Shown here piece after piece: positions 6,020-55,072 of a stretch of 64,000 nucleotides of DNA. Within the stretch, counting starts at the first letter, position 1. The number at the start of each line of letters is the position of its first letter. Both the position numbers and the translations under genes were made by a program. The notes under the pieces were generated by a model. That model made no database searches. It was not told the origin of the DNA and saw only the letters and a program-made list of their open reading frames with translations. Source of the stretch: Blasia pusilla (Eukaryota); NCBI GenBank assembly GCA_050084515.1, contig CM114271.1, positions 28,086,001-28,150,000 on the forward strand, written 5' to 3'.

Positions 6020-9000
6020 AATGCCTAGAGCACTTCAGCAATGAATACTGATATCCCTAATATAACAACCTAAATCATAAGGCACTAGCTGCAGTAAAGA
6101 ATAGAGATTCTCCACATATATTTTATGAGCTAGTATAATCTCTTCATACCTTGGACATGTGACAAACACATTCTCTTCATCCTCAATACTTTCTTCGTCA
6201 AATAACCTACAAATCCGTTCACTTCTATCAATGTTGAGGCATCGTCCTTCCTCAATTCTTAGTCTGTGAGACCCAATTCTATGTTGTGCGATAATATGAC
6301 GTAAGAACGTGGAGATCCCCGTAAGTAGCTATCCTTGTTCATAGTATACAAGCATAAGATTAACATGAAGTTGATAATATTCTATTTTTATGCCCGGGTT
6401 GCTCCAAATAATGTTGAGAAATTGCTTTTGTAGATGCTCGCAGAGTGCCATCGCTTTCAAGTCTCAATTCCGTTCTACCACATTCCACTTTGAAGACCAA
6501 GTCACCACATCTGCAATCCATCCTATGGAACGTATGGCTCGTAAAGCTTGATGAGGGAGGCGAGAAAAATCAAGAGATCTCACCCTTGCGATATAAGTGA
6601 TGGTCAAGTAGAGAGCTTCAACCTGTTTATGAAGAAGAAAAGCATAAGGAGTTGGTTTCTTACATCAATTCTTCTTGTAAAAAGATCTTTTGCACCCTCT
6701 CCACGCCTTTCAAACGTGTCTTCTTACAACTAGGGCCCCAAACTTTGGTCCCATATAAGACCAGAGATAGCACTAAGCTCCTAATTAAGAGCTTCCTAAG
6801 ACCCCACAATACAAGATGAGCTTTTCTACACCGATTTCAAAATCAATATAGAGCTTTGTAACCAGCTTGGATTCATTTTTAAAAATTTTGGAAGGAAGGA
6901 TTTGGTAACAAACTAGTGCACTATCATGGTGGGTAGTGTTTTTTCCAAGATGTTTGGGAAATTGGTGGAGTCAAAGTTGAGCGCATGGATAGATTCTTTC
7001 CAAAAGAGAGCACGAGTCCAAGCTAGTTATAAAATGCCCATTTAAAAATGAATATAGAGCTTTTTAATCCAAGCTTTTAAAAATGAATCCAAGCTGGTTA
7101 CAAAGCTCTATATTCATTTTTAAATCGGTGTAGAAAAGCTCATCTTTGTAACCTTGATTTAAAAATGAATATAGAGCTTTGTAACCAACTGTAAAAGAAT
7201 GAGAACTTGGATCTAGTACCCACTATAATGACTGTAAACTTCTCCATCTGATTCTGGGTACAAAAACTATGTACTTTTGTAAACTAATGCTATCACGTGC
7301 CAGTAATATGATATTATCTGCATACAATAAAGCTTTGATGACAAAGTCTCCAAGCTCTACACCTTCATTGTCATATTCCTCCAACCACTTTTCAATATCA
7401 TCTATGAAAACTCCAAATAGAGTAGGGAAGAGAGGGCAACCTTGAATGACTCCGATAGTACTCAAGATCTTTTGAGTTTGTGAATCTTTGATCTTGGCCC
7501 CAACGGAATGGTACAACATGGCCATGACAACTAGGAGATTTTTTCGTACTCCAATGGCTTACAACCTATCCCATAATAGCTTACGAGGTATTGTATCGAA
7601 ATCTTTCTTGAAATTGATAAAACCGCAAAAAAAAGCTTTCTCATCGCCCTTAGATTTCTCCAATAAAAAATGCAAGGCCAAGATATGGTCGAAGATGTTG
7701 TATGTTGGGCAAAAATCAGCTTGGACTCGTGCTCTCTTTTGGAAAGACTCTATCCATGCGCTGAACTTTGACTCAACCAATTTCCGAGACAGATTGGCAA
7801 AAATACTACCCACCATGATAGTGCGATAGTTTGTCACCAAATGCTTCCTTCTGGATTTTTGAATAGGAATAATCTTCCGTAGCGACCAAGAAGAAGAAAA
7901 ACCATAGATAGTAGCATCACCCAATACTTTGGTGAGGATCGACCCGATAGAATCTCCTCCCCACTTGAGAAGTTCAACAGAAAGACCATCCAAATCCTCA
8001 CATTTGCCATTTTCTAATTTTCTTAGTTGAGTTTTCACCTGTGCTTCAGAGAATTCCTCCACAATGCCGCATAGATGTAGCATGGGGGAAGAAGTAGAGC
8101 TTTTTGTCAAAAGATATCAAAGACTTGGGATCAAGAGTAGATTTTGAAGATCGTACTACTAACCGTCTCCAAACTGATTTGGGGTCGTCATGGACTTCCC
8201 TTGTTAAGGACTCATGCTTCCGCCGCTGGAAAGCTCGTTTCTTAGATTTCACTGAGTGTTTGTAAAGGCTCGTCATGATAAGCCGAGATTGGATATCCAA
8301 AGATTTGTCCACTGATCTTAACTTTGCTTGCTTGCATTGAGAGTCAAACCACCCATTACAAGGTGCCTCGTAGCACTTCTATCCCTATGCCGGGAAAAGA
8401 ACTTGGATGTAGTGTTTTTGAGCAATTCGATTAGTTGCAAACTTGCCCTCTTTGGATCAGGGCTCCATACAATGTGAGTCAAGAGTTCTTGTAAATCTAC
8501 CATGTAAATATCTTTTTTATGAGAATCTAAGCGAAACTAGGGAGAAGCTAAAACAGATTGACATATTGAGAGAGGAATTTTTGTAACCCTCATAACCAAA
8601 CAACATCAAATAAGTGCCAACCAGAACATCAGAACTCAAGTGGACTCACGCTACGATGATCGCGTTTTGGAGAGGCTTTTGGAAAGGTCTCGTGGAAAAG
8701 TCCAAGAGATGAAACGTGGAACAGAGTTGTGCATTTCATGTGTTAGTGGTTGCGACCAGGAAACCTTGACCAAACGCGAACCAAGATTTGAGATGAGTTG
8801 AGTCTTGGATGGTTGGTTGCAAAAGAGGTGAGAACCAATTTTGGAACGAGACAAGCGTTTGGGGAAGTTGATTGTATTTTGGACCATAATGTTTAGCCCC
8901 AAGATGCGTTTGGGACAACTAAGGGCGCGTTGGAAAGCTTATCTTTTGGAGCTTCTCATGCATAAAAGATCTTAGAAAACGCGTAAGTATAGGCTTGGAT

Positions 9001-10410
9001 TTTGGCTCAAAAAAATTATGAAAGAAACGATTGAGGGCCAATTTGAGGGTCCCGACTGTCCTTCCTTAAAGTTAGGGGGACCCTGGAGATCTCTTGAAGT
9101 ACTTATAAGAGGGGAATCTCTCCAAGATGTCTTAAAATACGAATCCCCACTTGAAACGCCAAACGGCGTCTCAAGGGCACGGGATGGAAAGGGAGTTTGG
9201 TGTTGGAACTCGAAACCCTAACCTGATCCAAGGGTGTGGACTTTGTAGCCACACTTGGATTCTGACCCGTGATTCATTTTGTGTGAGTCTCGGTTAGAAA
9301 CTCATTGGATGTTCATCGGAAAGTTGGAACTGCCACACGCGAAACGCCGTTCGAGGATTCTAAACTAACCATAAAGTCTGTCCCAAGTCTTCTGAGACTT
9401 TCATGTGTTGTAAACCGCGAAACTAGGAAGGTTAAGCTTGATGAGAGACCAAGACGAGAACTCAGAGAGGTAGCCCGCTGATTGAACTAGACCCGACTAA
9501 CCAGAGTGCGCGTTTAAATGTAGATCAACATTGAGATCGTGATCTACTAAACGCACGCTTTCGCAACAACAAAGATTAACGTTCAAGGAGAGAAGGCGTA
9601 CGACAGGAATGGTCTTAGAAAATTAGAGAGTAAACAAAAGAGGTGCATGATTTGATTTAGGCTGAAGTTTTAAAACTTCCAATGTAGAGATATGAGAGCT
9701 ATTAGTGGGCGAGGAGAGAAGATAGTGAATGGTGCTAGCACCGGTAGGAGAGAAACAAGTATTGGAGTGAGAGTTGGGAAAATGAGAGGTTCCATTAAGA
9801 ACTTTCAAATTACAAATGGCTCCAAAAGTTAAAAAATGTTTTGTCAAAGAATTTGGAGAAAGATCCAAAGAGATTCTAGACCACAAACCATCCTTTGGTT
9901 CTTCAAGAAGAGGAGAAGTCAAGGAGTCACTGAATTGGGTAAATTGAGTAGTACATGTGGGAGCATTGAAATCCTCAACTAGAAAGACTTCACCTTTGCT
10001 TTAATATTTGAGAACATCCCCAATAAGTCGATGAAATGGTTGCCTTTGATTACAAGTGCGGGTTGAGTAGCTAAGCATGGAAAGTGGTGCAAAATAACAA
10101 ACTGCCAGATAACAATAAGATCTCCCAACCAAAGACGTAGCCAATGATATTGGCCCCCAATGTCTTAATCTTCTAGATGTATGAGAGGTGTAGAAATTGA
10201 GATCTCATGAAAGTAGCACTACTGCCATAACCCCCTCTTTCCCGTTGCCTTCTTTTGTTCCATGTCGATCCCACCAAAGTAAACCCTTGCATCTCTGCAA
10301 TAGTATTTCTCTCATGTTCGCAGTCTCCTCGATATTGATGATGTCCCCATCTCCCAAACTGGTATAGCACTCACATACTTTATTGTTGAAAGGCGCATAT
10401 ATTCCACATC
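6020..10410 (-). pseudogene. LINE ORF2 (AP endonuclease + reverse transcriptase), disrupted
   Basis: ORF-track fragments 9623-9922, 8318-8503, 8046-8312, 7559-8110 and 7223-7525 are successive pieces; interrupted by solo LTR 8579-9605 and a rearrangement at 6813-7230. Confidence 0.85.
8579..9605. mobile_element. Solo LTR (older copy), 5-bp TSD GGAAT
   Basis: Colinear with 12831-13830. Its left end ttttgtaacc aligns to tgtcgcgacc with CpG-type changes; right end is ...cgaca. GGAAT at 8574-8578 and 9606-9610. Confidence 0.9.
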
Positions 10411-11199: not shown

Positions 11200-12110
11200 A
11201 CTTCACTACAATCCCAGATATTGCACGACCTCCAATCAAGTGGAGCAGAATCTCTAATACCACACAACTTCTGCCCTATAAGTTGGTTACGCTTGCAGTA
11301 TTTAATTATTGTGCGCCTACAAAATTTAGCTTGAGATCACAATTTTAGCTTGAGATCACAAAGATATAGCCTCTGCAAGATTCTAAGCTCCAGTCCTTAA
11401 ACCTACAAGATCAGAATATCCAACACCACACAAATTTTTCTCTATGAGTTCATTGTCATTGAAAATTTCTGAAATTGTGCGTCATGGCAACCTAAAATCT
11501 CCTTGAAAATTTCAGTTTGAGATCACAACTCACCACAAAGATAAAACCTCCGCAAGATTTTGAGCTCCAATCCTCACATCTACAAGAGCAGAATCTTCAA
11601 CACCACACACCTTCTTTGTTATAAATTGGTTGTACTTGAAATTTTGAGAAATTTTGTGCCTTGGAAACATCCAACTTTCCTAAAAATGTCAACTTGCGGT
11701 CACAACCTATGACAAAGATACAGCCTCCGCAAGATTCTAAGCTCTAATCCTCAAATCTACAAGATCAAAATCTCCAACACCACACAACATCTTCTCTATA
11801 AATTGGTTGTTAGTGAAATTAGTGAATTTTTTTTCCTTGACAAATTCCAACTTCCTTGAAAATTTCAGCTTGAGATCACAACCCATCACAAAGATACAGC
11901 CTCCACAAGATCCCGAGCTGCAATCCTCAAATCTACAAGAGCAGAATCTTCAACACAACACAACTTCTTCTCTATAAGTTGGTTATACTTGAAAGTTTGA
12001 GAAATTGTGCGCCTTGGCAATCTCCAACGTTCCTAAAAATTTCAGCATGAGATCGCAATCCACAACAAAGATATAACCTCCGTAAGATTTTGAGTTTCAA
12101 TCGTCAAATC
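11200..12110 (-). repeat. ~176-177-bp tandem monomers (about 5 copies) forming the LINE 5' region
   Basis: aaagatayarcctcygcaagat recurs at about 11360, 11537, 11713, 11890 and 12067. Confidence 0.9.
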
Positions 12111-12830: not shown

Positions 12831-13830
12831 TGTCGCGACCCTCATGACCAAACAAGTGCCAAGCGGAACATCGGAACATTAGCGGGCTCACGCTAAGATG
12901 GTTTGCGCGTTGGAGTTGTCTCAAAGAGGAGACAAGAGACGAGTCGCGAGCGATGAGTCGCGTTTCAGGTGTTATGGTCGCGACTGAGAAACCTGGACCA
13001 AACGCGGAATGAGACTTGAAAGAAGTTGAGTCTAGGAAGTGGGTTGCCAAAGGGAAGATCCGGATTTGGAAACGCCACTAGCGTTTGAGAGTTTCCGACT
13101 GTATTTATAGCCATAACTTTTAGCGCCAAGATGTGTTTGAAGCAAATAAGGGTGCGTTGGAAAGCTTATGGAGAGCCAGTCCAAACGCATCAAAGATCGC
13201 TGCAAACGCACAAGCAGCGGCCGAGATACGACCCAAATCGACTGTAAGTGGAGTCGGGTTGAGGGCCACAATGAAGGGCCCGAACCTCTTTTCCCAAAGG
13301 GGAGGGGTTATTGGAGAACCCCAGAAGTACTAGTAAGGGGGAAGGTCTCCGAGAGTGCTTGGAACCCAAACCCCACTTTGGGCGCCGCATGGGCGCTCAA
13401 GGGCATGGAACGGAACGCGAGTTTGGGCGTTGGGTTGGAAAAACTGCACCAAGTCCATTGAGGCGATTTTAGACATCCTCTTGGATTTCACGCCGCGACT
13501 CAATTACTTGGGTCTCGGTTCGAACTCACACGAGGATCGTTGAGCAGTTGGGATCGCTAGGCGTGCAAGTGCCGTTTCAGATCCCTGGACTAACCAGGAA
13601 GTCTGTTCCAAGTCTTGAAGGACTTGCCATGTGTTGGGAGCTAGGAACTAAGGAAGGTTGAGCTTGATGAGACGCCGAGTTGAGGACTCGGTGGGTTGGA
13701 ACGCCGGTTGACCAAACCCGACTAACGAGAGTGCGTGTTTGGGTGCAGATCGGCGATGAGTTCGTGACCTACTGAACGCACGCTTCCGCAACACTAAAGA
13801 TTGACGTTCAAGGAGAGTAGGGGCGCGACA
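12831..13830. mobile_element. Solo LTR (younger copy, 1000 bp), 5-bp TSD GGGAT
   Basis: Ends TGTCGCG...CGCGACA (7-bp perfect inverted termini). GGGAT at 12826-12830 and 13831-13835. CpG-rich; candidate TATA on the minus strand at ~13102-13110. Confidence 0.95.
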
Positions 13831-14531
13831 GGGATGGAATGCCATATCCTATAACTTGGCAAAAATTCCAACAATCAAAGGTATTAGTACTGAAACATTA
13901 GCATACCTTGATGCGAGGTATATTAGATTTCTATTTTTTCTATAGTTTTTTACAATTATTTTAGAATGTTGAAAGGTTGGGTTTTGATTGTATTTTCTTT
14001 TTTGTCAGAATGTTGGCGAATTTTCAGGTTGAGTCTACACACTAAGCAACCAAGTATTATAAGATTAATTGTTCATTTTCAAGATAGCCATATGGTATAT
14101 TCTCATGATTGAGAGTTTATTGGGTAATAGTCTTGAGCAGAGTAAGGAGACCACTCTTACGTAATGGTTTGCAACTACTATTTCCGATCCTATGGCTCCA
14201 CAACACCTTCATTTGGAATTCCCTTCTCATTATTCTTGGAATAAGAAGAAATCAACTTTCATGTGGAAGAAAAGGATTTAGACATTCCATCAGACGTTTA
14301 TATATGACTAACCTTGGTGAACTTTCTCTTATATGTGTAGATCTAATTTGTATATAAATATTTTAGTTAATGTAATAAAATGATATTAAAATTTTAAATA
14401 TAAGATTTGTTGTAAAAATATGTAAGTGAAGGCTCCGGAGCATCATTGGTTACGATCACTTCTCCATCATGTGAGAGGAGCTAAATCATATGAAGATTTG
14501 AGAATGATGGTGTCGTCTATCCTACTTTTCC

Positions 14532-14782
14532 ATCTTCTAATAGTCTGATTTGAAATTTTCATCAAAGAATTGGGAAACCCGATCCTCCCTTGAACATTCA
14601 AAAAATTCATCTTGCTTTATTAGGGGTCCGTTACCATCTTCAAGATCATGGATTAACTTGAATTTTTTGCTCGGGATTTATCAATCTCGTGCTAATCTAA
14701 TAAAGCAATTTTTTGAATGTTCAAGGAAGGATCGGCTTTCCCAATTCTTTGAAGAAAATTTCAAATCAGACTATTAGAAGAT
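14532..14782. repeat. Fold-back insertion (~85-90-bp inverted arms) containing a copy of 15046-15175
   Basis: 14532-14624 is nearly the reverse complement of 14697-14782; 14560-14695 is a direct copy of the downstream Helitron exon. Confidence 0.88.
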
Positions 14783-17519
14783 AATAGGGAGGTCTTTTCT
14801 TATTTTGAAGAAGCGGTTGAAATTTGTGTTGGTCACTCCTTGCGTCTACTATGTGCTATCATCCTTGTCTACAACATGTCATCTATACCTCGTGTGCTAT
14901 GGGAACCTTTCTTAGTTCCATTGACATAACACCTTTTACATCAAAGGCGTGAGGTAATATGCATGCCTTATTTTAAATTATGACTTAATAAATTTTGTTA
15001 TGTTTTATATTCATATTTTTTCATCTTTAAGCTTTTTTTGTAATTTTCTTCAAAGAATTGGGAAACCCGATCCTTACTTGAGCATTCAAAAAAATCATCT
15101 TAGAGGTCCATTACCATCTTCAAGATCATGGATTAACTTGTTTTTTCTGCTCGGGATTTACCAATCTCGTGCTATTCTGAGGAAGAGCTTTGCTACGATC
15201 GCAATATGCTTGCAGAACTTCTTGAACCAGGAGAGACCTCATTAAACAATGGACAACAAGCTATTTGGGATGTTGTCCATCTTCTTTTTTAGGAGCTGTT
15301 AAATGATGCACCATCTACTATAAGTACATTTTATTTATGTTATGTTATTGAAAGATTTAAATATATCTAACTTTCTTTTCTTTTAAATATCTTCTTGCTA
15401 ATTATGGTTTTATTAGGCAAAGTTATTCTTCATTGATAGTCTTGGGGGCACGGGAAAAACATTTCTATACAATCTTCCTTCGGGGATTGCTACTCTATTA
15501 TTGGATGGATTGCACATGACACATTCTTGATTCAAGATTCCAATTCAGATACATGAATTATCCACTTGCAAGTAAGTTTATGTGTAAGACTTTGCTAGCA
15601 TTTTACTTCCTTTCTTAATAATAATAGTAATAATAATATTTACTCACATATATTATGATTCAATGTTTGCTTAGTTTTTCATTTGTTGTGTAGTTTTTAG
15701 CCTAGAGGTTAATAGTCACTTAGTACGCCTTATACAAAATGCAAAATTTATCATATGGGACGAAGCCCTTATGACCCATCATCACGCTTTTGAGGTTGTT
15801 AGTCATACTTTCGCATACATTTGTTTAGGACAAGGATAGCATGAACAAGAAGTATTTCCAAACTGGTTATTGAAGGTTGGCTTAGGTTTGATATCATTGC
15901 ATTCTGACCTTGGAGATGATGTTATACGAATTCACGATACGATGATTGTTAAGAGCACAAGACTTCATGATCTCATAGACATTATCTATGAACATGACAT
16001 TGATAAGTGGAATGATATTCACTTCTTGAAGGGTATATCTATTCTTCAACAAAGAATACTACGATGGACTTCATAAATGCCGAAATAATGTCGTAATTTT
16101 CTGAAGAGGTAATTTGATTAAGTTATCAAATATCATAAATTTATTCAATACAATGAACATTTTTTGCAAGGATCACCGCATTCTTTAACTTTGAAGATTG
16201 GAGCTTTCATCATGCTATTACAAAATATGAATGGAGCAAAAGGACATGCAAACGAGACTCGCTTGGTCATTGTTGGATTTGGTTGACATGTTCTAGCTGC
16301 AGTAATTATGATTGGAAGAAATGTTGGTGGTTGAGGGTTTATTCCAGACATTTCACTAATTGCATCTGAGAGAAGTTTACCTTTTGATTTGCGACGATTT
16401 CAATTTCCTATTCGTCCACCTTTGGCGACAACAATTAATAAGTCTCATGGTAAAAAAATAGATAGATTTGGTATTTACTTGCCAAATCGTGTATTTTATC
16501 ATGGGCAATTAGATGTTTCAATTGATAGTCAACATCCAATAAACAAAGTTAGAGCTTATACTAGAAATGATGTTTATCATCAAATGCTACATTGGAAAAA
16601 ATACAAGGATGTAGTTTTCCATATTTTCGTATTCTTCTCTTTTTTCTTATTAAAATATTCGACTAATTTTTTTATCGATTATTATAAATACGCATGGATT
16701 CTCATAATGCATGGAAATCTTCAACTAGGACTCCACTACGAATCCACCAATCCCTATCTCGTCTATAATTCCAACTTCATCTCTAGATTTGTCCGGCATT
16801 TCCGTGGGAAAATACAGTGTTCCCAACCTGGTACACGCGTTGGTGTCCGAATGCATTGACGTTCACTCTGAGAGAGATTACAGGTAAATCCTCTGAGGTT
16901 CAAAAATATGTTACGGCGGGCAGATAAATTACACCCGAAAGGAACTTGCAGGTTTTAGAAGCTTATAGGTATATAGGAAAGTGTGAAGCCAAAGCCCGAG
17001 AGAACGCTCGAGTCAAGAAAGTGAACTTTTAATTTGAACTTAAGTGTTCAAAGTATTTGAACACTTGTGAGTTCAGTACTTTTGTGAGGTGCCGTGAAAG
17101 GGGTAGGCAATTCACAGAAAATACTCGGGTTGTGATAAAGATCACTCTTACTGGTACTCTTAAAACTCACAAACAAAGTGTATTAGTACGTTCCAATTTT
17201 CCTTCCCATCAAGGACTCACTAGTGGATTATCTCCGATTACCCAACTAGCTTTTTTTTAATTTATCAACTCGAATTGGGTTTAAAAGGTTGTGTTCTTTA
17301 AGAGAGACAACCTTTCCTTTGGAAGATTCTCGCGCGAATTGGATCACAGTGTAATGGTTTCAATGGACCAGCGAAGACGCTTGGTCGGTCGGGGTGGGGT
17401 GATTTCTCACCTTTCTCTTGGGGCCGTTACGTTTCGGAGCAGAGAAGATCGGAACGTGCGTGTGGATCGCTTGGCCTGTGCAGATTTGGGTGCAGAGCGG
17501 GTCCTGGACTCCTGGATAT

Positions 17520-19971: not shown

Positions 19972-22539
19972 AGACGATATTATAGTCATGTTGGAGTCCT
20001 TATCATGCAGGTAGGTTAACCGTGGAGTTAACCCAACCTCGTAGCGAGGCTTGTGGGTCTGGCTCTCCAAGCTACTCGTGATGGGCCAGCTATGGTATGC
20101 CTACAGGATTGGAAACTGGAGATGTATTTATTCCTCTGTCGATCTCAAGGCTCTTACAGACCCTGAACAAGCTTGTGAGGTTCCAGCACGGGAATGTACG
20201 AAATACCTCTTGGAGGTCTCGAGCAGGAATCGCACTCTGTCATTCCTGTAGCATCTGAACTGGAAACTTGGGGAGGGAATGCGTTGTCTGCGAAGTTAGC
20301 GGACAAATGCAACTTATCCCAGATCTGCTGCGCCATGAATATACTTGACATTATCTTTTCTAGAAAAGTCAGTAATCGTCGTGACTAACTAAATCCTTCC
20401 CTCCCTTGTGCATAATGTGAAAGCTTTGGATCTTCACCAGATTTTCTGTTCATCTCTTGGATCCTCTTCTAGTTTAGTCAATACCTACCGCTTATCTGTA
20501 CGTATTGACAAAACTCTGTGGTTTCGCACTTTCGGACCGATCATGAATCGTGAGAAATTTGGGAGCTAGGAAATTTGAAGCAGCAATGTAATTTTTAAAC
20601 GGAAGGGAAGAGTGTTCCCCACTAACGTGTTGACGATCTAGATGTGGTCACCCTCCAAAGATATATTGAAAACCAACCGATGGACATGATGTTCTTTTCG
20701 GCGGACCCGTGGAAAAGCCATCTGTATTTTCTTCGTTAAGCGACCCTGCCACCGGGCAAAGGACCCGGGAATGGTAAGAGGTTTGCACGATGAAGGAGGG
20801 GAGATGTGCAAATTACAACGACAGCTGAAAGCTCCCAGGGGAAGTGGACTTACAACTTGGGAACAGTTCTCACACTACCCTCGTTGCAGGAATGGAGAAA
20901 AGGGTTTCATGGTCAGAAACCCTAGGAGTCGAAGCGGCACTAGAGCAGGTTCATGGTGAAGCAGATACAGTATTTCCCATGAAAAAAAACGTAGTCACTT
21001 GACTTGACGGTGTATATTTGCCCGCTCTCCCTTTGAGTTGTGATCTAGTCGAGGATCCATTTCGAATATTGACGGTGTATATTTGCCTGCTCTCCCTTCT
21101 TTTCACTTTGGAATACTGTAGGATTGTCCAAATTAAGAATCTCGGGACTTGCATTTGCGAATGATTTTATGCGTTAGAAGGTTTGTCTTGGAGAACAATC
21201 TTGGTGATAGGGGTCTAGATTGTCTGAAATCAGTTTTAGCATTCCCTAACCACGGTGGGGTTATTTCCTGGTCAACTTTGAAATATGTGGACTTGAGGTT
21301 CCTAAGTTGTCCATTTAAAAGAAATGTGAACACAATTGAACACAAATATATTGAAACTAAATGTGAACTTTTGCTTTTGCTGGGGCTTGATTTTCTAAGA
21401 AAAAAATTGTATGTTTCACCAATTGTTGGATGATGATAAAAGGACAAAAGTGCATAAACATGTGGAAGCATGGATTTTGTCTTGTCATATTGAACAAGTC
21501 TTTTGAAGTTTTAATATTATTGGAGAAAATTTTCTTGAATTGTCCACTACTTGATATTATTCAACAACATGACTTAAATACTTTTGTAGAGGGAATATTT
21601 AAGAAATTTTATTGGCATTTAGAGAACCTTGATATGTTAACATGATTGACTCTCTTGATGTGGAAAAGAATTACGAACTTAAGCTCACAATTTTGTCAAC
21701 AAGCTTGCTATTTGATCGAATGATAGTCCCATTGTTGACTTCCTTCATACTCGAATCATAAGGAAACAATCTCATAACAAAGCACAAAAGGGGAGAGTCA
21801 ATTTGTAGAGAAATATTTTCTCACTAATTTTTGCCAAGTGAAAATTGGGTGCTCAATAAGCCAATCGGAAAATAATATTGCACTACTGAACAATATGGGG
21901 TGTCATAATACCCCTATCCGGGATTTTATTTTAGTGTCCCCAGATCTTTCTGTCCGGGACTTGCCCGATCCCAAACGGATAGTTTGGGATCGGGCAAGTC
22001 TCGGACCCGTTTTGGCGCCCACGGGACGAATCATTCCCGTCCCATTTGCATTTCTTCTCGGGTAGCCCGTGGATTTAAGGCTGGCCGATGACCATACACG
22101 GGCCAACGCAAAACTGCCGCCCCGTCCTCTTCCGGGTTAGTCGAGTGACTTTCCGGGTGGCCCCCTAACCTGGACGATTCCGGATAGGCACTAAATTGAC
22201 ATCCCCTAATGACTTCTCCTGCAGCTAGTTGATCACCGTCACTCAAGGGATGATAGAGTCCCAGGCTATCTGGTCATGGTACGCGATGTTGGACCAAAAC
22301 CTGCACACATGGATGCGGGAGGGGGTGCTTCTTATGAACACCTCACCTATGTTGAGAGATGTTTTTACGAACCTCAAGAACATTGAGCGCAACGTGGCGT
22401 AGGAGAACATAGCCACCATGGGTTCTAGGCGAGAGCAGACACGATTGCCTGCATCACCAATGCAGCAAGGTGGATTCCAAGATAGGTCTGTGGCACCACG
22501 AGCTCAGGGAGAATACCCGGAGGCTGTGCCATAAAAGCT

Positions 22540-25800: not shown

Positions 25801-25907
25801 TTTTGTAGGTATTTATTTGGATGTCACAAATCATGCATCATGCAAGAACTCACTATCACATGAGGATATCTTGTCGTGCACATACTCCCTTAAACGCCCG
25901 TCTTTTG

Positions 25908-28900
25908 TGTCGTGTGCATATATATCGCTACACAACATACATGGCTGGTCACATCTACACCACACAACACCGATCTTCCCCACACACGGGTAGATCCAGA
26001 TATATACTGAAATCAACCCATACATATACATGGAGATCACACAACAAAAAGAAAGAGTAGTAAAAACGGCACACCCGGCCTAAAACTCCACTCCTCAATC
26101 TACATCGGCATATCGAGCCTCGTCCACCGTGCGCTATTAAGGAATCCAGACACACATACACGAGAGGTACTCCAATGGCCCAACATGAGAAAGATGGCTT
26201 AGGAAAGCCATGTTCCTCTCTTATATAGGGTTGGGAAGAGCCAAAAGGCTCTTCCCCTTAGAATAGCCATCCCCTTGGTAACACGCGCGCACAGGTTACT
26301 AGGGGCGTGTGACCTGGTCAACAAGTCATCCGGCTGTGAAAGACCTCAACAGGAAAGTTGTCAGAAACGACGTTCTTGACATAATGGACCTATCCTCAAC
26401 CTCATCCGACACTGTGGGATAAAGTTACACTCAAGATAGTCCGCTGGCTCCTACGCCCTATCCACGATAGATCTCGGCCTATCGGCTACTCAGATGTGAC
26501 ACTTTTCATGCACATAAATATTGCTACACAACATACATCGCTGGTCACATCTACACCACACAACACTGATCTTCCCCACACACGGGTAGATCCAGACATG
26601 TACAGAAATCAACTCATACATATACATGGAGATCACACAACTGCCCCCCTAGTTGGCAGTTGGATCCCCCTAACTCCAGATGGAAAATATCACATCTCTC
26701 TGACATGACCTACTACCCTATACAGATTCGTACACATTCATTGTCCCGTGGGAACTACATCAAGAGGGGGGGTCATACATGACATATGCCACCCTCAAGA
26801 ACAACCATCACATACCAACATGGTGGCTGCACCCCTCGCAGATCCACACACTATACACCTCAAGCTTGTAGGTACCACTGCCAAGCTCGGATCCACTGTC
26901 CCGTCTACGTTCGGAAGATGACATGGCGTACAATTGCGCACATGATCCATCCCTCCAACATGAGGACTCCGGTCGGTAATACCTTGCGCACACGTAGGAT
27001 CGTGCCCCCTACAGTGACATCTAGCGTGGTGGGTGCCGCTTGCTGTAAATACACATAATCTCCAAGATGAAAACTCCTAATACCGGGATGATAACCTCCT
27101 TCACCAATTGTTGCGTATCTCTATGTATCTCTCTGTTGAGCAATAGCTAAGTTCTCAAAGGCCATAAGCATAACTCTACAAAAAATCTCTGCCTTCTGAG
27201 AACACGCTTGTACCCACACATCCGGATCATCAAGATTTAACACCTCTGCCATGTCACGTCAAATAGCTGTAGGTAAATCTGGCTCTCTCCCAAAGAGCAA
27301 AAAGTACGGTGAAAATGACGCCAAGGATGCCTGCCGACTAAAGCGATAACCCATAGCCAACCATGGCAACTGTAGGTCCCACTCCCTCAACTTTCCTTGC
27401 TGCAAGCCATACTTGCGCAATCCTCTCTTCACCATCTGTACTACTCTCTCCGCCAACCCATCCGCCTCAGGATGATCTTTGGAGGTGGTGCAGTGATGTA
27501 TCAACGCCTGATCACACAAGGTGTGAAACTCTCCCCTGAACTCGGTACCCTCGGCGGTCAACACCTCCGCCAGTGCACCAAAATGACTAACTCTATCCAC
27601 TTGGAGAAATGCTCCACCATGACCAACAAGTACCTATGATGACGCCCCGTCAATGGCAAAGGTCCCGCAAAGTCTAAACTCCACCGATAACCTAAACCCA
27701 TAATCGAAAAAGGATGTAACAGTGGAGTGGGAGCATTGAAGGATGCTCACACTCTGTCACATACCATACATCTGGCCACAAACTACTGTACCCCAGTATG
27801 CATGCCGTGCCACCAATATTGAATCTGGAGTAAGTTGTAAGTACGCTTCACTCCAAAATGTCCCAACTCCTCATGGGCATGTCGCACTACACGTGCTTGT
27901 TGGGAAGGATGAGGTACCACTCGTATCTTACCATCTCCCCATACCCGCAAAATGTGAGTCCCCTCCCACCTAAACCTCCTGGCTCTTTGTAGGATCTGAT
28001 CCCACTCCCTAGCACTCACTATGCTTGCTATGACGCCAGTGCGCAAGAACTCCACAACCTCCACATCTTCATGGATATCACGACCACCTGTCGCCTCCTC
28101 ACTGACCTCCACATCCAAAGACTCGTCATCCAACCCCACCACTGGAGTCATCACCTGTGGCTGACCTACCATAGTCAACCAACAAAGATAGGTAGATACT
28201 TGCCAACCGGGCGCCATCTACTTATCACTCTCTCTCTGCCATCGACCTTCTGTGTCGTCTCTCTGACTCGGACATGGGTTACAACTCAACCCATCCGCAT
28301 CTTGGTTCAGCCTGCCTGGCCTATGAACCACCTCAAACTCATACTCATGTAGTAATAGAGCCCACCTGGCAAGCTTTCCCGTAAGCTTGTGATAAGTGTG
28401 AAAGGGTTGCCGAATAAATAACACCTGAAATGTGCCACGGCCCACACTACAACCAAGCACTCTCCCTCATAAGAGCTATACTTTTCCTCTTCAATGTTGT
28501 TTGATCGGCTCGCGTAAGCCACAACAAACTCCCTCTCCTCGTCATCTCTCTGAGTAATCACTGCTCCTAGACCCAACATGCTCTAATCCGTATGTAACTA
28601 GAATGGGGGATCCCTAATCGGTCTTTGAAAAATGGGTCAGGACGTCAACCTATCCTTGAGCTCCTGAAATGCTCAATCCTGATCATCTCCCCATAACCAA
28701 ACCTGATCAAGTCTCGTCAACAAGGTCAAAGACTTTGCGATTGCACTAAAACCCTTGACATACCGTCGATAGAAGTTTTCCAGTCCAAGATACGCTTGGA
28801 CTCAACTCACATCTGTAGGGCGTGGAATTTGCGCAGTAGCCTCCACCTTCGTCAACTGAACGCCTAACCCACTCGGGTATATGGTGTGTCCCAAGTACTC

Positions 28901-30614
28901 AATCTGCTCCTGAAAGAATCTGCACTTGCCTGGATTGACCATCAGAGGACCCTCCAAGTGCTGGAACAACACCTTCCATGCTATGAAAGGGTTGAACCGT
29001 GTTGGGGTCCGTATCTCCTGGAAGTCGCACCACGTGTCCAACTCCTGGATAAAATCATCTTAATCGATGGTGCCCACTACACCCGAGAAATGACGCATGC
29101 TCCGATGGCCCATGTCGTCCATCTCCTGCCAAGTGATACTGGCTCCGTCTGCGATCTCGTCACCAGACCCGGTGTCCACTGATAACGATCCAGCCATGGA
29201 TGGATATCGAGGTAGCTCCTCACTCGTAACCCCTCAGTATCTCAATCCACTCCGTGTCACACCACTACTAGTGCTCGTACTACCCCATTCTTCCTGACCC
29301 TAGAAGAATGCCGTGATGACAACCCTATCTCACCCGCTCAAGCACTCAGACTCACCAAGAGTCTCCCACACTCCTCACTAGCTCACCTATGCTAACGTCA
29401 ATCCCGTGATGACACACCCGGCCTCACGCACACTCAACACTCTGGTCTGGCTCACCATGAGCCTCCCAACTGACTCACCTAACCTAGCGACACTCTCGGG
29501 TCATACATGCGACCCCTACTCGGAAACCTCCGTATATCCACCACATGCTACACATGAAAAGAATCTACACTCGTCATCATCATTGCACCCACCTAGCAGT
29601 AGCTACTACCCGATACCCAACACTCTCAATCACACACGACAAGTGCGGGAAAAGGGACTCGAATGGGTAACGTGATCACGCCCTCCAACCTACGTACCGT
29701 CAACACTCACTCCTCCATGTGGTATGGCAACCTTTGCAACACGACACTCTCCTCCTTTGGGAGGGGTGTGGGTTTGCATCCGCACCTAGCCGCCTCCGCA
29801 ACCCTAACCGCCTCCGTGACCCGGCCGCCTCCGCGATCTAAACCTAGCCCGCCTCCACGCCCAAGCCGCCTCCAGGAAAATTCTTTCCTTCCTGCTCTTT
29901 CCCGACACACCCGCTTGCGTACACTCGACGCCACACCGCGCGCTACACCTGACTACTGTCCCCCGTCACCCCGCACCAAAGAAATCTGCGAAAAATAGAG
30001 AGCACTTCCGCGCATGGCCTTCCGAACTCAAAGTGACCAACACAACGCCAAGCAGCATCTCCAGGGGCTCCCAACCAAGGCAACTCGCTTGCCTACCTGC
30101 AAACAACAAATTCCCACCAGCCCCTGACATCTTTCTCATGTAAAAATAAAGAGTAGTAAAAACAACACACCTGGCCTAAAACTCCACTCCTCAATCTACA
30201 TCGGCATATCGAGCCTCGTCCACCCTGCGCTATCAAGGAATCCGGATGCTAGCACCCTAGTCCTATCTCACACACATACAAGAGAGGTACTCCAATGGCC
30301 CAACATGAGAAAGATGGCTTAGGAAAGCCATCTTCGTCTCTTATATAGGGTTGGGAAGAGCCAAAAGGCTCTTGCCCTAAAAATAGCCATCCCCTTGGTA
30401 ACATGCGCGCACAAGTTACTAGGGGCGGGTGACCTGGTCAACAAGTCACCCGGTTGTGAAAGACCTCAACAGGAAAGTTGTCAAAAACGACGTTCCTTAC
30501 ACAATGGACCTATCCTCAACCTCATCCGACACCGTGGGACAAAGTTACACTCAAGATAGTCGGCTGGCTCCTATCCACGATAGATCTCAGCCTATCGGCT
30601 ACTCAGATGTGACA
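25908..30614 (-). mobile_element. Ty3/Gypsy retrotransposon (internally deleted) with permuted/split LTRs
   Basis: Minus-strand pol pieces: RT C-terminus (NPGKCRFFQEQIEYLGH), RNase H (LGLGAVITQ..VAYASRS..YSSYEGECL), HHCC (HEELGHFGVKRT), integrase core (EGTEFRG..HPEADGLAERVVQMVK), PHD finger. Repeats: 25908-26043 matches 26504-26640, and 26047-26501 matches 30142-30614. PPT at 26641-26650. Exact left end is ambiguous (25902-25910) and there is no clean TSD. Confidence 0.92.
30128..30138 (-). promoter_or_regulatory. Self-priming primer-binding site (TGAGAAAGATG)
   Basis: Immediately follows the LTR-terminal CA (30140-30139) and is perfectly complementary to 30316-30306, which begins 31-32 nt downstream of TATATAA (30347-30341). 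Confidence 0.8.
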
Positions 30615-31414
30615 TATGCGTTCAACACATCACGCTCTCCTTGCTAATCCGTTGTCAAATCCTTTCACATTAGCCGTGAGTTGAGTCAGCCAGCCTTGCG
30701 TTGCTCAAGTCTCTCGTCATCCTTCAAACTCAACAAATCTAGACGAGGTCGAATATCAACCTAACCCCTTACTCCCCAACATAACCAAGTTATTCAAGAC
30801 TTGGGATACACTTCCTTGACATTTATAGAGTGAATACATATGAGTGCCAACATAAATTGGTTGTCATATGCATAAGCTCAAGATCCACCTAACTATGAAT
30901 CCTAATATATCTACAAATGAATGGTTGGACATATCCCAATATAAAAATCAACATGCTATATCATCGTTCATTGAAGCATCCACTCAAGATATGCAATACT
31001 GTAGCAACAAGAGAAAAATTGAATCAATAATGAACTCTCATTGTACAACCTCTGATCAATCCTAACCCATTCTTACTTGAGAGAATCAAGGCTCAATACA
31101 ACAACATACCTGTAGCATATTATATATAGATCCTAACATTAGCCTTATCTAAGGAAGATGAGTTTCAAATGAGCCTCGCCCAAGGAATACCCCCTATGCA
31201 AAGGATCATGGAGTACACAATATTCTTACTCTCCAACCAATCCTTCACATAGTCTTCTCACAAGATAACATAATCTATCATGTTGGCATACTAACCTTGA
31301 GCTAAGACTTCACTTGCTCACAATATATAGACATCTCACATGTTTATGAGGCGCATTAGTTTTGGATCACTATTGAATTTGATTGGCCCAAACAACAAGC
31401 GTGGATTTATTTAG

Positions 31415-46759: not shown

Positions 46760-47430
46760 TTCTTTCTTGAGTGCAGCTCCTCCCTTCTTGTTCCTAATCA
46801 TTTGGCTGATCCGTTTGGCTTGGCTTTAATCAGAGTTATTAGCTACTTCTGTCGTGACCAAATCCTCTGAATTCCATCATGTGCGCCTCTTGCTGATGAT
46901 TACAACTGGTCTTTCTTCAATGCGGCTCCTCCCTTCTTTTTTCTGATCGTTTTGTTGATCGGCTTGTTAGCTGCTACTATCGTGACCAAGTCCTCTCAAT
47001 TCCATCCTAGGCGCGTCTTGCTGATGATTACAACTGGTCTTTCTTCAGTGCGGCTCCTCCCTTCTTTTTGCTGATCGTTTTGTTGATCAGCTTGTTAGCT
47101 GCTACTATCGTGACCAAGTCCTGTGAATTCCATCTTGGGTGCCTCTTGCTGATGATTACAACTGGTCTTTCTTTAGTGCGGCTCCTCCCTTCTTTTTTCT
47201 GATTGTTTTGTTAATCAGCTTGTTAGCTACTACTTTCGTGACCAAGTCCTCTGAATTCCATCTTGGGCGCCTCTTGCTAATGATTACAACTGGTCTTTCT
47301 TCAGTGTGGCTCCTCCCTTCTTTTTGCTGATCGGATTGGCTTGGATTTAAAGAGATTTAATAACTGCTATTATCATGATCAAGTCCTTTGAATTCCATCC
47401 TGGGCACCTCTTGCTGATGATTAAAGATGG
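46760..47430. repeat. 128-bp tandem repeat, about 5 copies
   Basis: cgtgaccaa recurs at about 46853, 46981, 47109 and 47237, with diverged copies on either side. Confidence 0.92.
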
Positions 47431-47517
47431 TCTGTCATTCTAGTACACACAACTGTTGCTTCGCTACATTCTCAATTTGTCGATGGCGGCTTGTCTGATT
47501 TCGACTAAGACCCCAAA

Positions 47518-51502: not shown

Positions 51503-52669
51503 ACGTGTATATGATCCCATCCTAGATCTGATCAGTCCTCAGCATGGATCCTATAAAGATGCAATTTTTATCTATTGTAGATTCCAAGATAGGTGGTGAG
51601 AGAAAGTTTAATGGTTTTCATAGAGGGTTCTTCTTTATGATCTCTCTGCTCGACTCCCCTTTAGTAGGTTTTAACCTAGCCAACAAATCACATGCCAACT
51701 ACTCACATATACCACCACCTTTAAAGTAGATTATGTATATTAATCTACAAGTTAATCCACTATTCAAAGATTATAAAACACTAATAGAGCTACCAGACAC
51801 ATCATCTGGCTTGATCGTGCTACCTCTATCATCAGTACACAGCATATTGAAGTCATCTCATGAGAAAGGCCAGGTTACTTACAGCATGAACCATGATCCT
51901 TACCACCTGAATATTCTCCAAGATGTAGCCTACTCTTTTCCTGTTCAAAAAAGGACTTCTACAGACATCTATGACAATGGGAGTATATCTCTACGTTCGA
52001 GTGCTTCCTCAAGGGTTGATCTACTCACAGATGCCTTTGGTACATCTCTTGATCCTAATCTCACAATAGAGACAGCTTCATTCCCATTCATGTTTTTGTT
52101 TCATCGTGGCTACTTCACTGGTCTTACCACCTTTTCAGAATATATGTGTAATAGATCTCCTCAGTTGTTTAGTCTATTCTCTTGGTACAAGCCATGTGCA
52201 TTGTTGATGCCCCAGTTGCGCCTATCTATTGCATTATGTTCAAACTCACGTACATTTATCCTTAATAAAGAGTTAGATAAACTTAAGAAGGACAAGCCTA
52301 ACCTGTCTAAGAAAGACTTATATCATCAACTATCAAAGCACTCGATAAGTCCTCAGATACCATGTAGTCCATGTTGGCATAGGCGACATCTCAAAGATCT
52401 TAAAGCTATGGTGCATAAGTGGGGAATGCCCCAATTATTCTTAACTCAAACTTCATATGAAGTGTCTGCTACAAGGTGATCAGAATTCACTGATATAGAA
52501 TCAATAGTAAGCAAATTCAACGCAACTTTTACTTGGCGTGATGCTCCAGCTGAGTGCTCTCAGCTCTTTCTTGTCAGGCTTCATTCATTTCTTTCATCCT
52601 TCATTTTCTCAGGTCCTCAGATACTTGGGAAAGTTCATGACTACCTTATTCGCTATGAGTTGTAGGGCA

Positions 52670-53366
52670 TTTTCGTGCGCATACACATCGCTACACAACA
52701 TACATCGTTGTCATCGAACACACACACAAACACACACGATCCCATGCTAACTCATGGCATCCATACACAGAGGCGAGAAGTACCAAAATATCTCCAATAA
52801 AGTAAGATCCAATCTCTCTCTACACCATCTCACACCATAGCTCTCAAAAGTGTCCACTCTCTCTCATGTCAAACCAAACCCACTCTCCTAATGAGAGGCT
52901 TGGGTTACATTCACAAGGCAAGGAATCATAGCTCGGCCGCCTCATGCCAAGAGGTTCAACAAAGAGAGAATGAGCTCTCAAGCTCTCTCCTTGAGGTATA
53001 CCCCTCCCCTCTCCCAAGCTCTCTCCATGGTAACCTATTCTCCCAAGTCACCTCCTTGGCTCTTGACCTGATGTAGGACGTCAAGGGCCACTTACCAAAA
53101 ATATAAAGTCGATCATATACTCAGACTAGTACTTACCTAAAATAGTAAGTTTCTCAATATGGCTCCAAATGAGCCGAAATGAAGGGGAAACCTGCTCTCT
53201 CAGGTTTCCCGAGGCCTCAACAGGTCATCCTCAACCTCTTGGGTCTATCCTCCACTACTCGTGCAGACGCTCTGCTAGATCCTACCGATCTATCATAACA
53301 ATCGTGACAACGCGCACGGGTAGTCTCAGAGATTTGTACCTATACGGGTAGTCTCTATTGTTGACA
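52670..53366. mobile_element. LTR-derived insert related at both ends to the permuted LTR of 25908-30614
   Basis: Starts ttttcgtgcgcatacacatcgctacacaacatacatcg (cf. 26503 and 25908) and ends cctatacgggtagtctctattgttgaca (cf. cctatcggctactcagatgtgaca at 26501/30614). No TSD; the adjacent Helitron HUH motif is missing. Confidence 0.65.
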
Positions 53367-54845
53367 AACCAGTACCAAACCTGATGACAGAGGTTCGTGG
53401 TGGAAGACAAGCATCTGAACTTCTTCAAGACTTAGTATTGCATAAGCAACTACATAAATGCAGGGAGGGGGTTGGTATCATTAGGAAAAGGACATCCAAA
53501 CCTTACTTTAGGCTTGGATTCCCTAGTAGTGTTAATCCTAACCCTTATCCATTCATTGATCCTACAACTATGAAGTGGAACTACTACAACCCATCACTTG
53601 AGCACCGTAATGTAATCCCTTATCACCCACTAGTGTTAGTGTTATGGGGGGCTCACATGAACATTCAAAGACTTACTTATGCATATTGGTCATTTTACTT
53701 GCTAAAATAGGCTCTCAAATCTGAGCCCAATGGCTCTCTAGATATAGATATAGAGACAGCTAAGTGCCTTGGTCTTGGGGGTTTAGATGAAGTTAAGCTC
53801 AGGCTAGTCTCAATTGTTGTACTCAACATATCAGTTTCCTTGACGAAGGCTGCCTTGACATCTCTACAAATACCTATGATCTACAGATATAGGGTTTTCC
53901 ACTACATTGATTCAAATCCACCTAGCAAAAGGACTAACTTATATAAGAATGCATCGACCCCATGCATTCATCCTACTACTACATAGTGCAACACACTTGC
54001 ACTTGCAGAAGAACACACCTTCTACCAGTACTGGTCAAACCATGAACTACTCAAAGTCCTACCAAATAGGCAGAGTAGGAAAGTGATTGGATTTGACAAC
54101 TTAGGCAATATTGAAGCTAAGTCTGGTTGAATTTTCCGCTTCATTGAATTCCATCCTCTCTACCAGTGGAATGAATTCTTCTACTCGATTCTACTTGAAA
54201 ACATAGTATTCATATCAAAAGATGATATCGTGCCAAGCCATGATGTTGGGTGGAAATTCTTGCATGAATGTGTACACGGAGGTATTGTCAAATCTATGGA
54301 TGATATACATATCTTGATTATTTCCCATGTAGCTCAAAATTTATGGAGTCAAGTTCATGAAGCTGAAATTCTTTTTAAAGCTACATACTTCAAGCTGAGT
54401 TAGCAACTAATTTAGACATTATGCTATCTACTTCACCTATTGATATTGATGTACTTGAGATAGTTCAGAATACATAAGATGACTAGATTGATCAAGCAAC
54501 ACTCAATGAGGAAGAGCATCTGCTCTTCATGAAACTTAAGGATGTAAAATCTGGTCTAGTAGTCCTTTCAGGCCCTCCAAGTTGTGGCAAGTCCTTCTTC
54601 ATACAATTAATGTATAAGTTTTGGTCTTCCAAGAAGATGGCATCACTACTAACTGCAACAACAGGTATAGCGGTTGTACGTCTCCATTCACATGCAATCA
54701 CGGTTCATTCAACGTTTGCTATCCCTATTCGTTGTGATCTTCCAGCTATGCATGCTACTTTTGATTCTTATGCCAGGCTTACATCTGCTCAAGTTATTTT
54801 CATTGAAGAATTCTCAATGCTAACGTGCAAATTGTTGCAAGTTAT

Positions 54846-55072
54846 ATGTCCATATGGGCCCCACCTTTCCCTTCCCCTTACTTGCCTTCATGTTCCATAC
54901 TCCCCCATTTATTCCTCCCTCCATCTCCACTCCCTCCTCCCTCATTGCTCCACTCATCCCTCCTTGCCTTCCATCATAAAAGTGAGGGTCCCATCTCTTG
55001 GAACTCATGTCCATGGACATGGGCGGACTTGTCCATCCTTAGGAAGGACTTGTCCATTTTTGTGCAACCATA
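54846..55072 (+). mobile_element. hAT-type MITE (copy 3, left-truncated)
   Basis: Matches 47596-47837; right end tgcaaccata; sits where helicase motifs III-V have been deleted. Confidence 0.88.

What the first reader, a model, noticed from the sequence alone, without database searches (positions are those of the whole stretch)
30128..30347. Tf1-style self-priming: the PBS pairs with the predicted first 11 nt of the element's own RNA
Seen: the PBS does not begin with TGG, so it cannot pair with a tRNA CCA end. 30128-30140 and 30304-30316 form a perfect 13-nt inverted repeat, and the LTR copy starts 31-32 nt downstream of TATATAA, the usual plant TSS distance. Established: S. pombe Tf1 primes minus-strand synthesis with its first 11 nt after RNase H cleavage. 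Inference: the same mechanism operates here, with the primer ending exactly at the LTR-terminal CA.
Basis: partly seen in the sequence, partly recalled or inferred. Interest (0 to 1): 0.7.

Follow-up and report, generated by a model that had tools for sequence, protein, structure and literature searches.

The report
Self-priming retrotransposon with rearranged ends
A broken copy of a plant jumping gene appears to start its DNA copying with a short piece of its own RNA instead of a tRNA, and its scrambled end repeats record where that primer stops and suggest that it inserts from a circle-like copy cut at an internal site.

Summary
The inverted repeat is real, and it is 14 nt (30128-30141 / 30303-30316), not 13. 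It sits in a deleted copy of a high-copy Ty3/gypsy family. Full copies carry a Dnmt3-like methylase, RT, RNase H, DDE integrase and PHD finger, so they are relatives of KnitGypsy-Dnmt3.

Self-priming is well supported. Three families with unrelated LTRs each have a PBS that matches their own LTR about 30 nt after a TATA-like box (13-17 nt; 0 of 2000 shuffles; 3-6 nt across families).

The element reads A1-PBS-internal-PPT-B1·A2|B2 with a 4-bp TSD. A2 stops just before the duplex: 388 junctions lack the 'terminal' ACA and 3 keep it. So the primer covers the ACA and is about 13-16 nt.

The TG...CA integrase ends come from an internal CA-GC-TG site. This implies end-joined or circular cDNA opened internally (inferred).

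The transcription start was not shown. Self-priming is already predicted for plant Tcn1 and TAR elements, and the repeat layout was noted once, in a figure legend. My searches found no paper with this combination or mechanism.

The parts
30615..30618 (-). left copy of the 4-bp target-site duplication (CATA)
   Evidence: 3 of 4 letters match the right copy; exact in 10 of 13 complete family-1 copies
30142..30614 (-). repeat A1 (473 nt; begins with TG; inferred distal U3 + R + U5), left end of the element
   Evidence: sharp left boundary in 30 of 30 loci
30341..30347 (-). TATA box TATATAA
   Evidence: sequence; a TATA-like motif lies at the same distance in families 2 and 3
30307..30340 (-). hairpin across the predicted start site; its 3' arm is the 5' part of the primer
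   Evidence: -18.2 kcal/mol, z -3.3; equivalent hairpins in family 3 (z -2.95) and family 2 (-18 to -19 kcal/mol, 5 of 5 copies folded)
30303..30316 (-). predicted self-primer, 14 nt (CATCTTTCTCATGT)
30128..30141 (-). primer-binding site, 14 nt (ACATGAGAAAGATG), which includes the ACA that looks like an LTR end
   Evidence: the left edge is fixed by the A2|B2 junction
28939..29197 (-). start of the first reading frame (presumed gag; one in-frame stop), cut by an internal deletion
   Evidence: the gag label is by position only
28935..28939 (-). junction of a deletion of about 4-4.5 kb that removes the rest of gag, the Dnmt3-like domain and most of RT
   Evidence: L050 2216->6394, L049 1724->6252, L031 1804->5729
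26720..28935 (-). broken pol remnant: end of RT, RNase H, zinc-finger and DDE integrase, C-terminal PHD finger (about 26857-26726); many stops and frameshifts
   Evidence: Pfam on sister copies
26642..26650 (-). polypurine tract; repeat B starts right after it
   Evidence: the same motif is in families 2 and 3
26504..26641 (-). repeat B1 (138 nt; inferred proximal U3); its CA end is decayed in this copy
26498..26507 (-). internal B1·A2 junction; in the family it is a GACA-GC-TGTC palindrome (inferred integrase att site), decayed here
   Evidence: (499 matches, control 0)
26046..26501 (-). repeat A2; ends at the base before the PBS (no ACA); has a 24-nt deletion relative to A1
25908..26045 (-). 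repeat B2; ends in CA, right end of the element
25904..25907 (-). right copy of the 4-bp TSD (CAAA)
52670..53309 (-). solo A|B unit of sister family 2, with its own primer sequence and hairpin; no TSD seen

Best explanation
This is a dead, internally deleted copy of a high-copy Ty3/gypsy lineage with a PHD finger and, in full copies, a Dnmt3-like methylase. (1) Transcription starts inside A1, about 30 nt after the TATA box (inferred). (2) The first 13-16 nt of the RNA pair with the PBS (complementarity shown). A cut at the duplex end, by the element's RNase H as in Tf1 (inferred by analogy), frees a primer whose 3' end pairs with the A of 'ACA'. (3) Ordinary LTR reverse transcription then gives linear B·A-PBS-internal-PPT-B·A. 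Its right end is the base before the PBS and its left end is the base after the PPT; both are read directly from the A2|B2 junction. (4) These ends carry no usable CA, so they are joined (a 2-LTR circle, or an end-to-end jump of the plus strand). The DDE integrase opens the molecule at the internal CA-GC-TG palindrome inside U3. This gives A1-internal-B1·A2|B2 with TG...CA ends and a 4-bp TSD (products shown; intermediate inferred). A-internal-B copies come from 1-LTR circles, from cutting a linear cDNA at both internal sites, or from later B x B recombination. (5) The hairpin across the start site can form only in the 3' LTR copy of the RNA, where it would mask the second primer sequence (speculative).
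For: Duplex: 14 nt in the window, 13 in L172, 17 in L108; 0 of 2000 shuffles each; 3-6 nt across families. Family 1 and family 2 primers differ at several of 14 positions and each matches only its own PBS. Family 2 is 16/16 in 6 of 11 rows (some rows are the same locus twice). The 11 free letters of the PBS pattern are unchanged in 83 of the first 100 of 473 junctions. Both arms are perfect in 21 of 29 parsed copies. A|B junction: 388 without ACA; 10 with a remnant (5 A, 3 ACA, 1 ACAT, 1 ACAC). Truncated A ends join exactly at B position 1 (L065, L073), and one junction keeps the PPT (L075). A1/A2 and B1/B2 share private variants within each of 12 copies, so both are remade in each cycle. 4-bp TSD: exact in 10 of 13 (a 5-bp TSD in 0 of 13), and in 4 of 6 family-3 copies. 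Solo A|B units: 8 of 30, 4 with an exact TSD. The same layout, PPT and att site occur in metagenome contigs with 60-71% protein identity. Domains.
Against: No reproducible RNA 5' end at 30315-30316. The three raw-read runs gave only scattered piles (30342, 30337, 26390, 27661, 28161; 5-6 molecules each), none shared between runs. No compensatory change was seen within family 1: 8 of 29 copies have a single uncompensated mismatch. In family 3 the pairing runs to about 21 nt in some copies, upstream of where a TATA-based start would lie, while several decayed copies pair only 7-12 nt. A symmetric 2-LTR circle predicts the mirror product A|B·A-PBS-internal-B equally often, but it was seen in 0 of 30 A1 loci, 0 of 30 B·A junctions and 0 of 30 A|B junctions. 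The whole 217-nt leader folds no better than its shuffles (z -1.1). No circle, cDNA end or cleavage was observed.
Confidence: 0.72

Rival explanations
1. Self-priming, but by the copy of the primer in the 3' LTR of the RNA (RNA cut or ended just after the primer sequence), or in trans by a short separate transcript, rather than by the capped 5' end.
For: Family-3 pairing reaches about 21 nt and family-2 pairing 16 nt, reaching to or beyond the expected start site. The conserved hairpin could mark a processing site. No 5' end was seen in RNA.
Against: The hairpin would mask the primer in a U3-containing RNA. The constant distance from the TATA-like box points to the transcription start. Private variants downstream of the primer are shared by A1 and A2, as in a normal strand transfer. 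The Tf1 precedent uses the 5' end (PMC7175516, passage).
Confidence: 0.12
2. One reading: an 11-nt Tf1-like primer ending at an LTR-terminal CA, with the ACA trimmed later.
For: 3 junctions keep exactly ACA. Tf1 uses 11 nt (PMC7175516, passage). ACA, ACT and ACA open the PBS in all three families, like an old att end.
Against: 388 junctions lack ACA. The remnants form a ladder (A, ACA, ACAT) rather than one 3-nt end. In all three families the junction falls exactly at the duplex end. Family 3 has ACT there, not ACA.
Confidence: 0.07
3. A DIRS/Ngaro-type split-repeat cycle: an RNA runs from the start of A1 to the end of B2, and the internal B1-A2 junction templates the circle junction. The inverted repeat is then only structural.
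For: The A-coding-B-A-B order is the one described as typical of DIRS elements (PMC5890265, legends of Figs 1 and 4). It would explain why only one permutation is seen. A few reads cross the A|B junction.
Against: The 4-bp TSD, TG...CA ends and rve integrase. PBS and PPT lie exactly at the repeat edges. The A2|B2 junction holds PBS and PPT remnants. B1 and B2 share private variants. No PF00589 in the 12 stretches scanned or in the 120 listed homologues.
Confidence: 0.06
4. A host tRNA or tRNA fragment is the primer, and the LTR match is incidental.
For: tRNA priming is the rule for most plant LTR lineages (PMC6317226, supplementary table). Only 28 distinct tRNAs of 15 anticodons were checked.
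Against: No TGG under either boundary. The longest word shared between any primer and those tRNAs is 5-6 nt. Three different PBS sequences each match their own LTR.
Confidence: 0.03

Closest known systems
KnitGypsy-Dnmt3 of Klebsormidium nitens (de Mendoza et al. 2018, PMC5890265; passages and figure legends read, figures not seen)
   Same: Gypsy pol with a Dnmt3-like domain. The methylase stretch of L041 is 44% identical over 263 aa (E 5e-59) to K. nitens KFL_009030040 (that this protein is a KnitGypsy copy is my inference). The repeats are described there as DIRS-like, i.e. A-coding-B-A-B.
   Different: The paper gives no priming or integration mechanism ('priming' and 'circular' occur 0 times). 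This element also has a C-terminal PHD finger, groups with Marchantia copies, and is only about 42% identical in RT to the Klebsormidium protein.
S. pombe Tf1 and the Tf1/Sushi group (PMC7175516 and PMC4600332, passages)
   Same: The PBS is complementary to the presumed 5' end of the element's own RNA; no tRNA.
   Different: The duplex is 14-17 nt rather than 11. No chromodomain. Permuted repeats instead of two LTRs. The one chromodomain-bearing fish sequence in my tree falls in a separate, fully supported group (thin outgroup).
Plant Tcn1 chromoviruses and TAR copia elements (Neumann et al. 2019, PMC6317226; passages and supplementary table 5 read)
   Same: Self-priming is predicted in plants: Tcn1 83% of 1500, TAR 89% of 203.
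   Different: Tcn1 has a 5-bp TSD and a chromodomain in 100%; TAR is Ty1/copia with a 5-bp TSD. This family has a 4-bp TSD, PHD and Dnmt3-like domains, and split repeats.
Phygy non-chromoviruses of Physcomitrella (PMC6317226, supplementary table)
   Same: 4-bp TSD, 7.6-10 kb, no chromodomain, bryophyte host.
   Different: Phygy is listed with a tRNA-Trp PBS (81%) and an NCGN target preference. Neither is seen here. RT relatedness was not tested because no Phygy sequence was on hand.
Chlamydomonas Gypsy-7a_cRei (PMC9940879, passages and legend)
   Same: A Gypsy element with a PHD finger and LTR 'subparts'; naturally active in laboratory strains.
   Different: It is 15.4 kb. Its sequence was not seen (the supplement is cut), so layout and PBS are untested.
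Integrase cleavage of palindromic LTR-LTR circle junctions in foamy virus (PMC1180852, abstract and outline)
   Same: A DDE integrase can cut an internal palindromic att junction of a circle.
   Different: There the cut site is the junction of the cDNA ends. Here it is a templated site inside U3, and the joined ends are kept inside the element.

Membership tests
Ty3/gypsy LTR retrotransposon | RT-RNase H-integrase order with a DDE core | tested here: met
   (PF00078, PF17917, PF17921, PF00665)
Ty3/gypsy LTR retrotransposon | TG...CA ends, short TSD, PPT | tested here: met
Ty3/gypsy LTR retrotransposon | two complete direct LTRs at the ends | tested here: not met
   the layout is A-internal-B·A|B or A-internal-B
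KnitGypsy-Dnmt3-like lineage | Dnmt3-like C5 methylase upstream of RT | tested here: met
   full copies: (best solved matches are DNMT3A/B); deleted in the window's copy
KnitGypsy-Dnmt3-like lineage | A-coding-B-A-B repeats | tested here: met
KnitGypsy-Dnmt3-like lineage | one RT clade with the Klebsormidium elements | tested here: inconclusive
   the green-lineage rows lie apart from the animal rows, but the tree is a midpoint-rooted FastTree with few outgroups and an open backbone
Tf1-type self-priming | PBS complementary to the element's own LTR downstream of the promoter, covarying between families | tested here: met
Tf1-type self-priming | the complementary stretch is the RNA 5' end | tested here: inconclusive
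   no reproducible ends in fragmented RNA-seq
Tf1-type self-priming | 11-nt primer | tested here: not met
Tf1-type self-priming | RNase H cleavage releases the primer | not testable with these tools
   needs biochemistry
Tcn1 / Tf1-Sushi chromovirus | C-terminal chromodomain and 5-bp TSD | tested here: not met
   a PHD finger followed closely by the PPT; 4-bp TSD
Phygy | tRNA-Trp PBS and NCGN target site | tested here: not met
DIRS/PAT/Ngaro | tyrosine recombinase instead of a DDE integrase | tested here: not met
   rve is present; no PF00589 in the 12 stretches scanned (not every base of an element was scanned) or in the 120 listed homologues

The most novel reading that the evidence does not exclude
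A green-plant Ty3/gypsy lineage, from algae to bryophytes, has given up both standard end-making steps. It primes with its own 13-16-nt RNA 5' end, which removes the U5 att site. It then integrates only through an end-joined or circular cDNA that its DDE integrase opens at an internal CA-GC-TG site, one of two chosen specifically. That would make it a DDE-integrase retroelement with an obligatory circle-like intermediate, convergent with DIRS elements and missed by two-LTR finders.
Probability: 0.55. Interest if true: 0.8.

Novelty: new variant of a known kind. Interest (0 to 1): 0.66.

Why it matters
It would add a third plant lineage that self-primes, outside Tcn1 and TAR. The primer boundary can be read from hundreds of genomic junctions. 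It also offers a mechanism for the unexplained DIRS-like repeats of Dnmt3-bearing Gypsy elements. Whether circular cDNA can be a productive substrate for DDE integrases is a long-debated question in retrovirology (my background knowledge; see PMC1180852); here the integrated products appear to need such a step. In practice, programs that need two LTRs with a TSD would misread these abundant elements, and methylase-bearing copies are present in land plants.

Tried and rejected
RNA evidence for the start site: no RNA holder was listed for the stretch (shares 0.08 or less, not used as evidence). Three raw-read runs (6-12% of each read) and one contig set were laid. They show transcripts of related copies (mostly 86-95% alike), mainly in one direction, but no reproducible end at 30315-30316. 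The organism of those runs need not be the window's.

Fetching 10 kb upstream of 20 diverged B·A junctions found a matching A1 in only 4 (one more gave a partial hit), so no fourth primer family was obtained.

The first family-2 hairpin fold used wrong coordinates (third row, discarded) and was redone.

The idea that A1/A2 homogenisation would stop at the TSS was rejected: shared private variants occur on both sides of it.

Nested insertion as the cause of the B-A-B end was rejected: the layout recurs in 12 of 20 fetched copies and in another genome.

The one apparently compensated family-3 copy (L098) is not counted, because CpG decay could produce it.

The REM1 paper was not held. REXdb's element table and FASTA were too large to read, and the KnitGypsy supplements had no hits for the terms searched; these unseen files may bear on novelty.

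Earlier findings of the scan: none.

Full report
OBSERVATION. On the minus strand, a repeat begins with TG at 30614 and runs to 30142, followed by ACATGAGAAAGATG (30141-30128). Its exact complement lies at 30316-30303, 31 nt after the first T of TATATAA. The match is 14 nt, one more than reported. Anchored at the PBS start, 0 of 2000 dinucleotide shuffles of the repeat reach 14 (mean 4.4, max 10). The predicted fold of the 217-nt leader contains this helix, but the leader as a whole is no more stable than shuffles (z -1.1).

THE ELEMENT. The internal region is a broken Ty3/gypsy pol ending in a PHD finger, with a deletion of about 4-4.5 kb at 28939/28935 relative to three longer copies. The family is abundant: 4053 candidates, of which 40 were scored. 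Twelve open stretches from sister copies gave RT, RNase H, H2C2 zinc finger, rve, PHD and a C5 DNA methylase; four stretches gave no family. The methylase is closest to DNMT3A/B among solved structures and 44% identical to a Klebsormidium nitens protein. RT-RNase H homologues with PHD and/or methylase domains are named from Marchantia, Coleochaete, Closterium, Klebsormidium, Haematococcus and Pleodorina. In a 127-row FastTree, families 1 and 2 of this genome are sisters and group with two Marchantia proteins and the metagenome copies (support 99). The animal rows, including the only chromodomain-bearing one, fall in a separate group (support 100), but the backbone is open and the outgroup thin. 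The host is probably a bryophyte (inference; not determined).

THE ENDS ARE NOT TWO LTRs. The order is A1-PBS-internal-PPT-B1·A2|B2. Of 20 copies fetched over 10 kb, 12 showed B1·A2 or A2|B2, 4 ended at B1, and 4 were uninformative. A 4-bp TSD flanks the A1 start and the last B end: exact in 10 of 13 complete copies including the window's (3 of 4 letters there), while a 5-bp TSD is exact in 0 of 13. B1 starts right after the PPT. B1 and A2 meet at GACA-GC-TGTC or its C-to-T decay products (499 matches, reversed control 0). Within each of 12 copies, A1 and A2 share private variants along their length, and so do B1 and B2. Both pairs are therefore recopied from one template in each cycle, as LTRs are, and the true LTR is B·A. 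Eight of 30 A|B junctions are solo units, 4 with an exact TSD. De Mendoza et al. 2018 (PMC5890265; passages and legends read) state that KnitGypsy-Dnmt3 has DIRS-like repeats, defined there as A-coding region-B-A-B, and give no mechanism.

PRIMER BOUNDARY. If B·A is the LTR, the A2|B2 junction is the join of the two cDNA ends and shows where minus-strand DNA began. An exact pattern without ACA has 388 matches. A pattern that keeps an A plus up to 4 letters has 10: A five times, ACA three times, ACAT once, ACAC once. The junction thus falls at the end of the 14-nt duplex, and the exceptions look like leftover primer. One junction keeps the PPT (L075), and two join shortened A ends exactly to B position 1 (L065, L073).

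COVARIATION. Family 2 in the same genome shares the PPT and the att site but has an unrelated A repeat. Its PBS (ACAAAGAGAGAATGAG) matches its own repeat 16 of 16 in 6 of 11 rows and 12-15 in the others (some rows repeat a locus), and its A2 also ends at the base before the PBS. Family 3, from metagenome contigs with 60-71% RT-RNase H identity, has the same layout (L108, L119), a 4-bp TSD in 4 of 6 copies, and a 17-nt match in L108. Decayed copies pair 7-12 nt and some pair about 21; 4 of 13 rows could not be scored or were mis-parsed. Each PBS matches only its own family's repeat (13-17 nt versus 3-6). The distance from the TATA-like box to the primer 3' end is 44 and 43 nt in families 1 and 2 and about 42 in family 3 (counted). 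Within family 1 there is no compensation: 21 of 29 parsed copies are perfect and 8 carry one uncompensated change, as expected from decay after insertion. Against 28 distinct host tRNAs of 15 anticodons, from 30 of 63 tRNA loci, the longest shared word is 5-6 nt; this is a partial test. All three families have a hairpin across the predicted start site.

RNA. Reads of related copies cover the element mostly in one direction, which is the sense strand if the libraries are of the usual stranded kind. Many reads cross family 2's B·A junction and few cross A|B, which fits B·A lying in the 3' part of the transcript. No end pile is shared between runs and none lies at 30315-30316. Fragmented RNA-seq of diverged copies is a weak test, so the start site stays inferred.

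MECHANISM. Shown: complementarity, covariation between families, junction positions, TSD, domains. Inferred: start site, RNase H cleavage (by analogy with Tf1: first 11 bases, cut between bases 11 and 12; PMC7175516, passage), joining of the cDNA ends, and integrase cleavage at the internal palindrome (precedent: foamy virus integrase cuts palindromic circle junctions; PMC1180852, abstract). Unexplained: a symmetric circle should also give A|B·A-PBS-internal-B, which was seen in 0 of 30, 0 of 30 and 0 of 30 loci in three samplings. A plus-strand jump from the right end onto the left end, stopping near the att site, would explain the bias but is speculation. Three of the 30 B·A junctions (L052, L061, L070) are PPT-B·A-PBS-internal, i.e. 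head-to-tail forms.

NOVELTY. Self-priming in plants is not new. Neumann et al. 2019 (PMC6317226; passages and supplementary table 5 read) predict it for Tcn1 (83% of 1500) and TAR (89% of 203), and do not mention PHD in the main text. Novikova et al. 2010 (PMC2864245, passages) found no priming signal for SM-Tcn1. Ten full-text searches found one paper on KnitGypsy and none that describes self-priming, an internal att site or permuted LTRs for this lineage. Subscription papers, Repbase notes, theses and some supplements were not searchable. Verdict: a new variant of a known kind.

Noticed in passing
window 53309-52670 (-): Solo A|B unit of sister family 2, with its primer and hairpin; no TSD seen.
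   Followed up: partly
window 60332-62587 (+): Long frame split by one stop that reads like a hAT-type transposase (label recalled from motifs; not scanned).
   Followed up: no
window 51730-52479 and 54487-55083 (+): Frames that look like Helitron Rep/helicase fragments (label recalled; not scanned).
   Followed up: no
window 11229-12110 and 46761-47439: Tandem arrays with periods of about 177 nt and 128 nt.
   Followed up: no
window 8607-9612 / 12849-13837: A 1-kb direct repeat at 68% identity, 4.2 kb apart; possibly an old LTR pair.
   Followed up: no
window 2913-3639 / 5900-7870, 6813-7190, 14520-15178: Long inverted repeats and palindromes, like MITE or foldback elements.
   Followed up: no
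window 22229-22531: 83% match to part of locus L172 (3036-3341): an internal fragment of family 2 or of a sequence nested in it.
   Followed up: no
L040 right end: B2 is followed by the att spacer and a family-2-type A start: a tandem or inter-family recombinant.
   Followed up: no
L083-L118 (metagenome contigs): In family 3, B1 is followed by flank in 14 rows and by A2 in 7 (one more row is cut off; some rows are the same element). The A-internal-B form is much commoner there than in family 1.
   Followed up: partly
P0006, P0007: Two annotated Marchantia polymorpha 'hypothetical proteins' with RT and C5-methylase domains look like copies of this lineage.
   Followed up: partly
P0151: A close relative is labelled as a cyanobacterial protein in a public record; probably plant or algal DNA in a metagenome bin.
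   Followed up: no
A2 of the window, L032, L039, L047: Independent 20-30-nt deletions in A2 that A1 lacks; this may only reflect that loci were picked by their A1 match.
   Followed up: no
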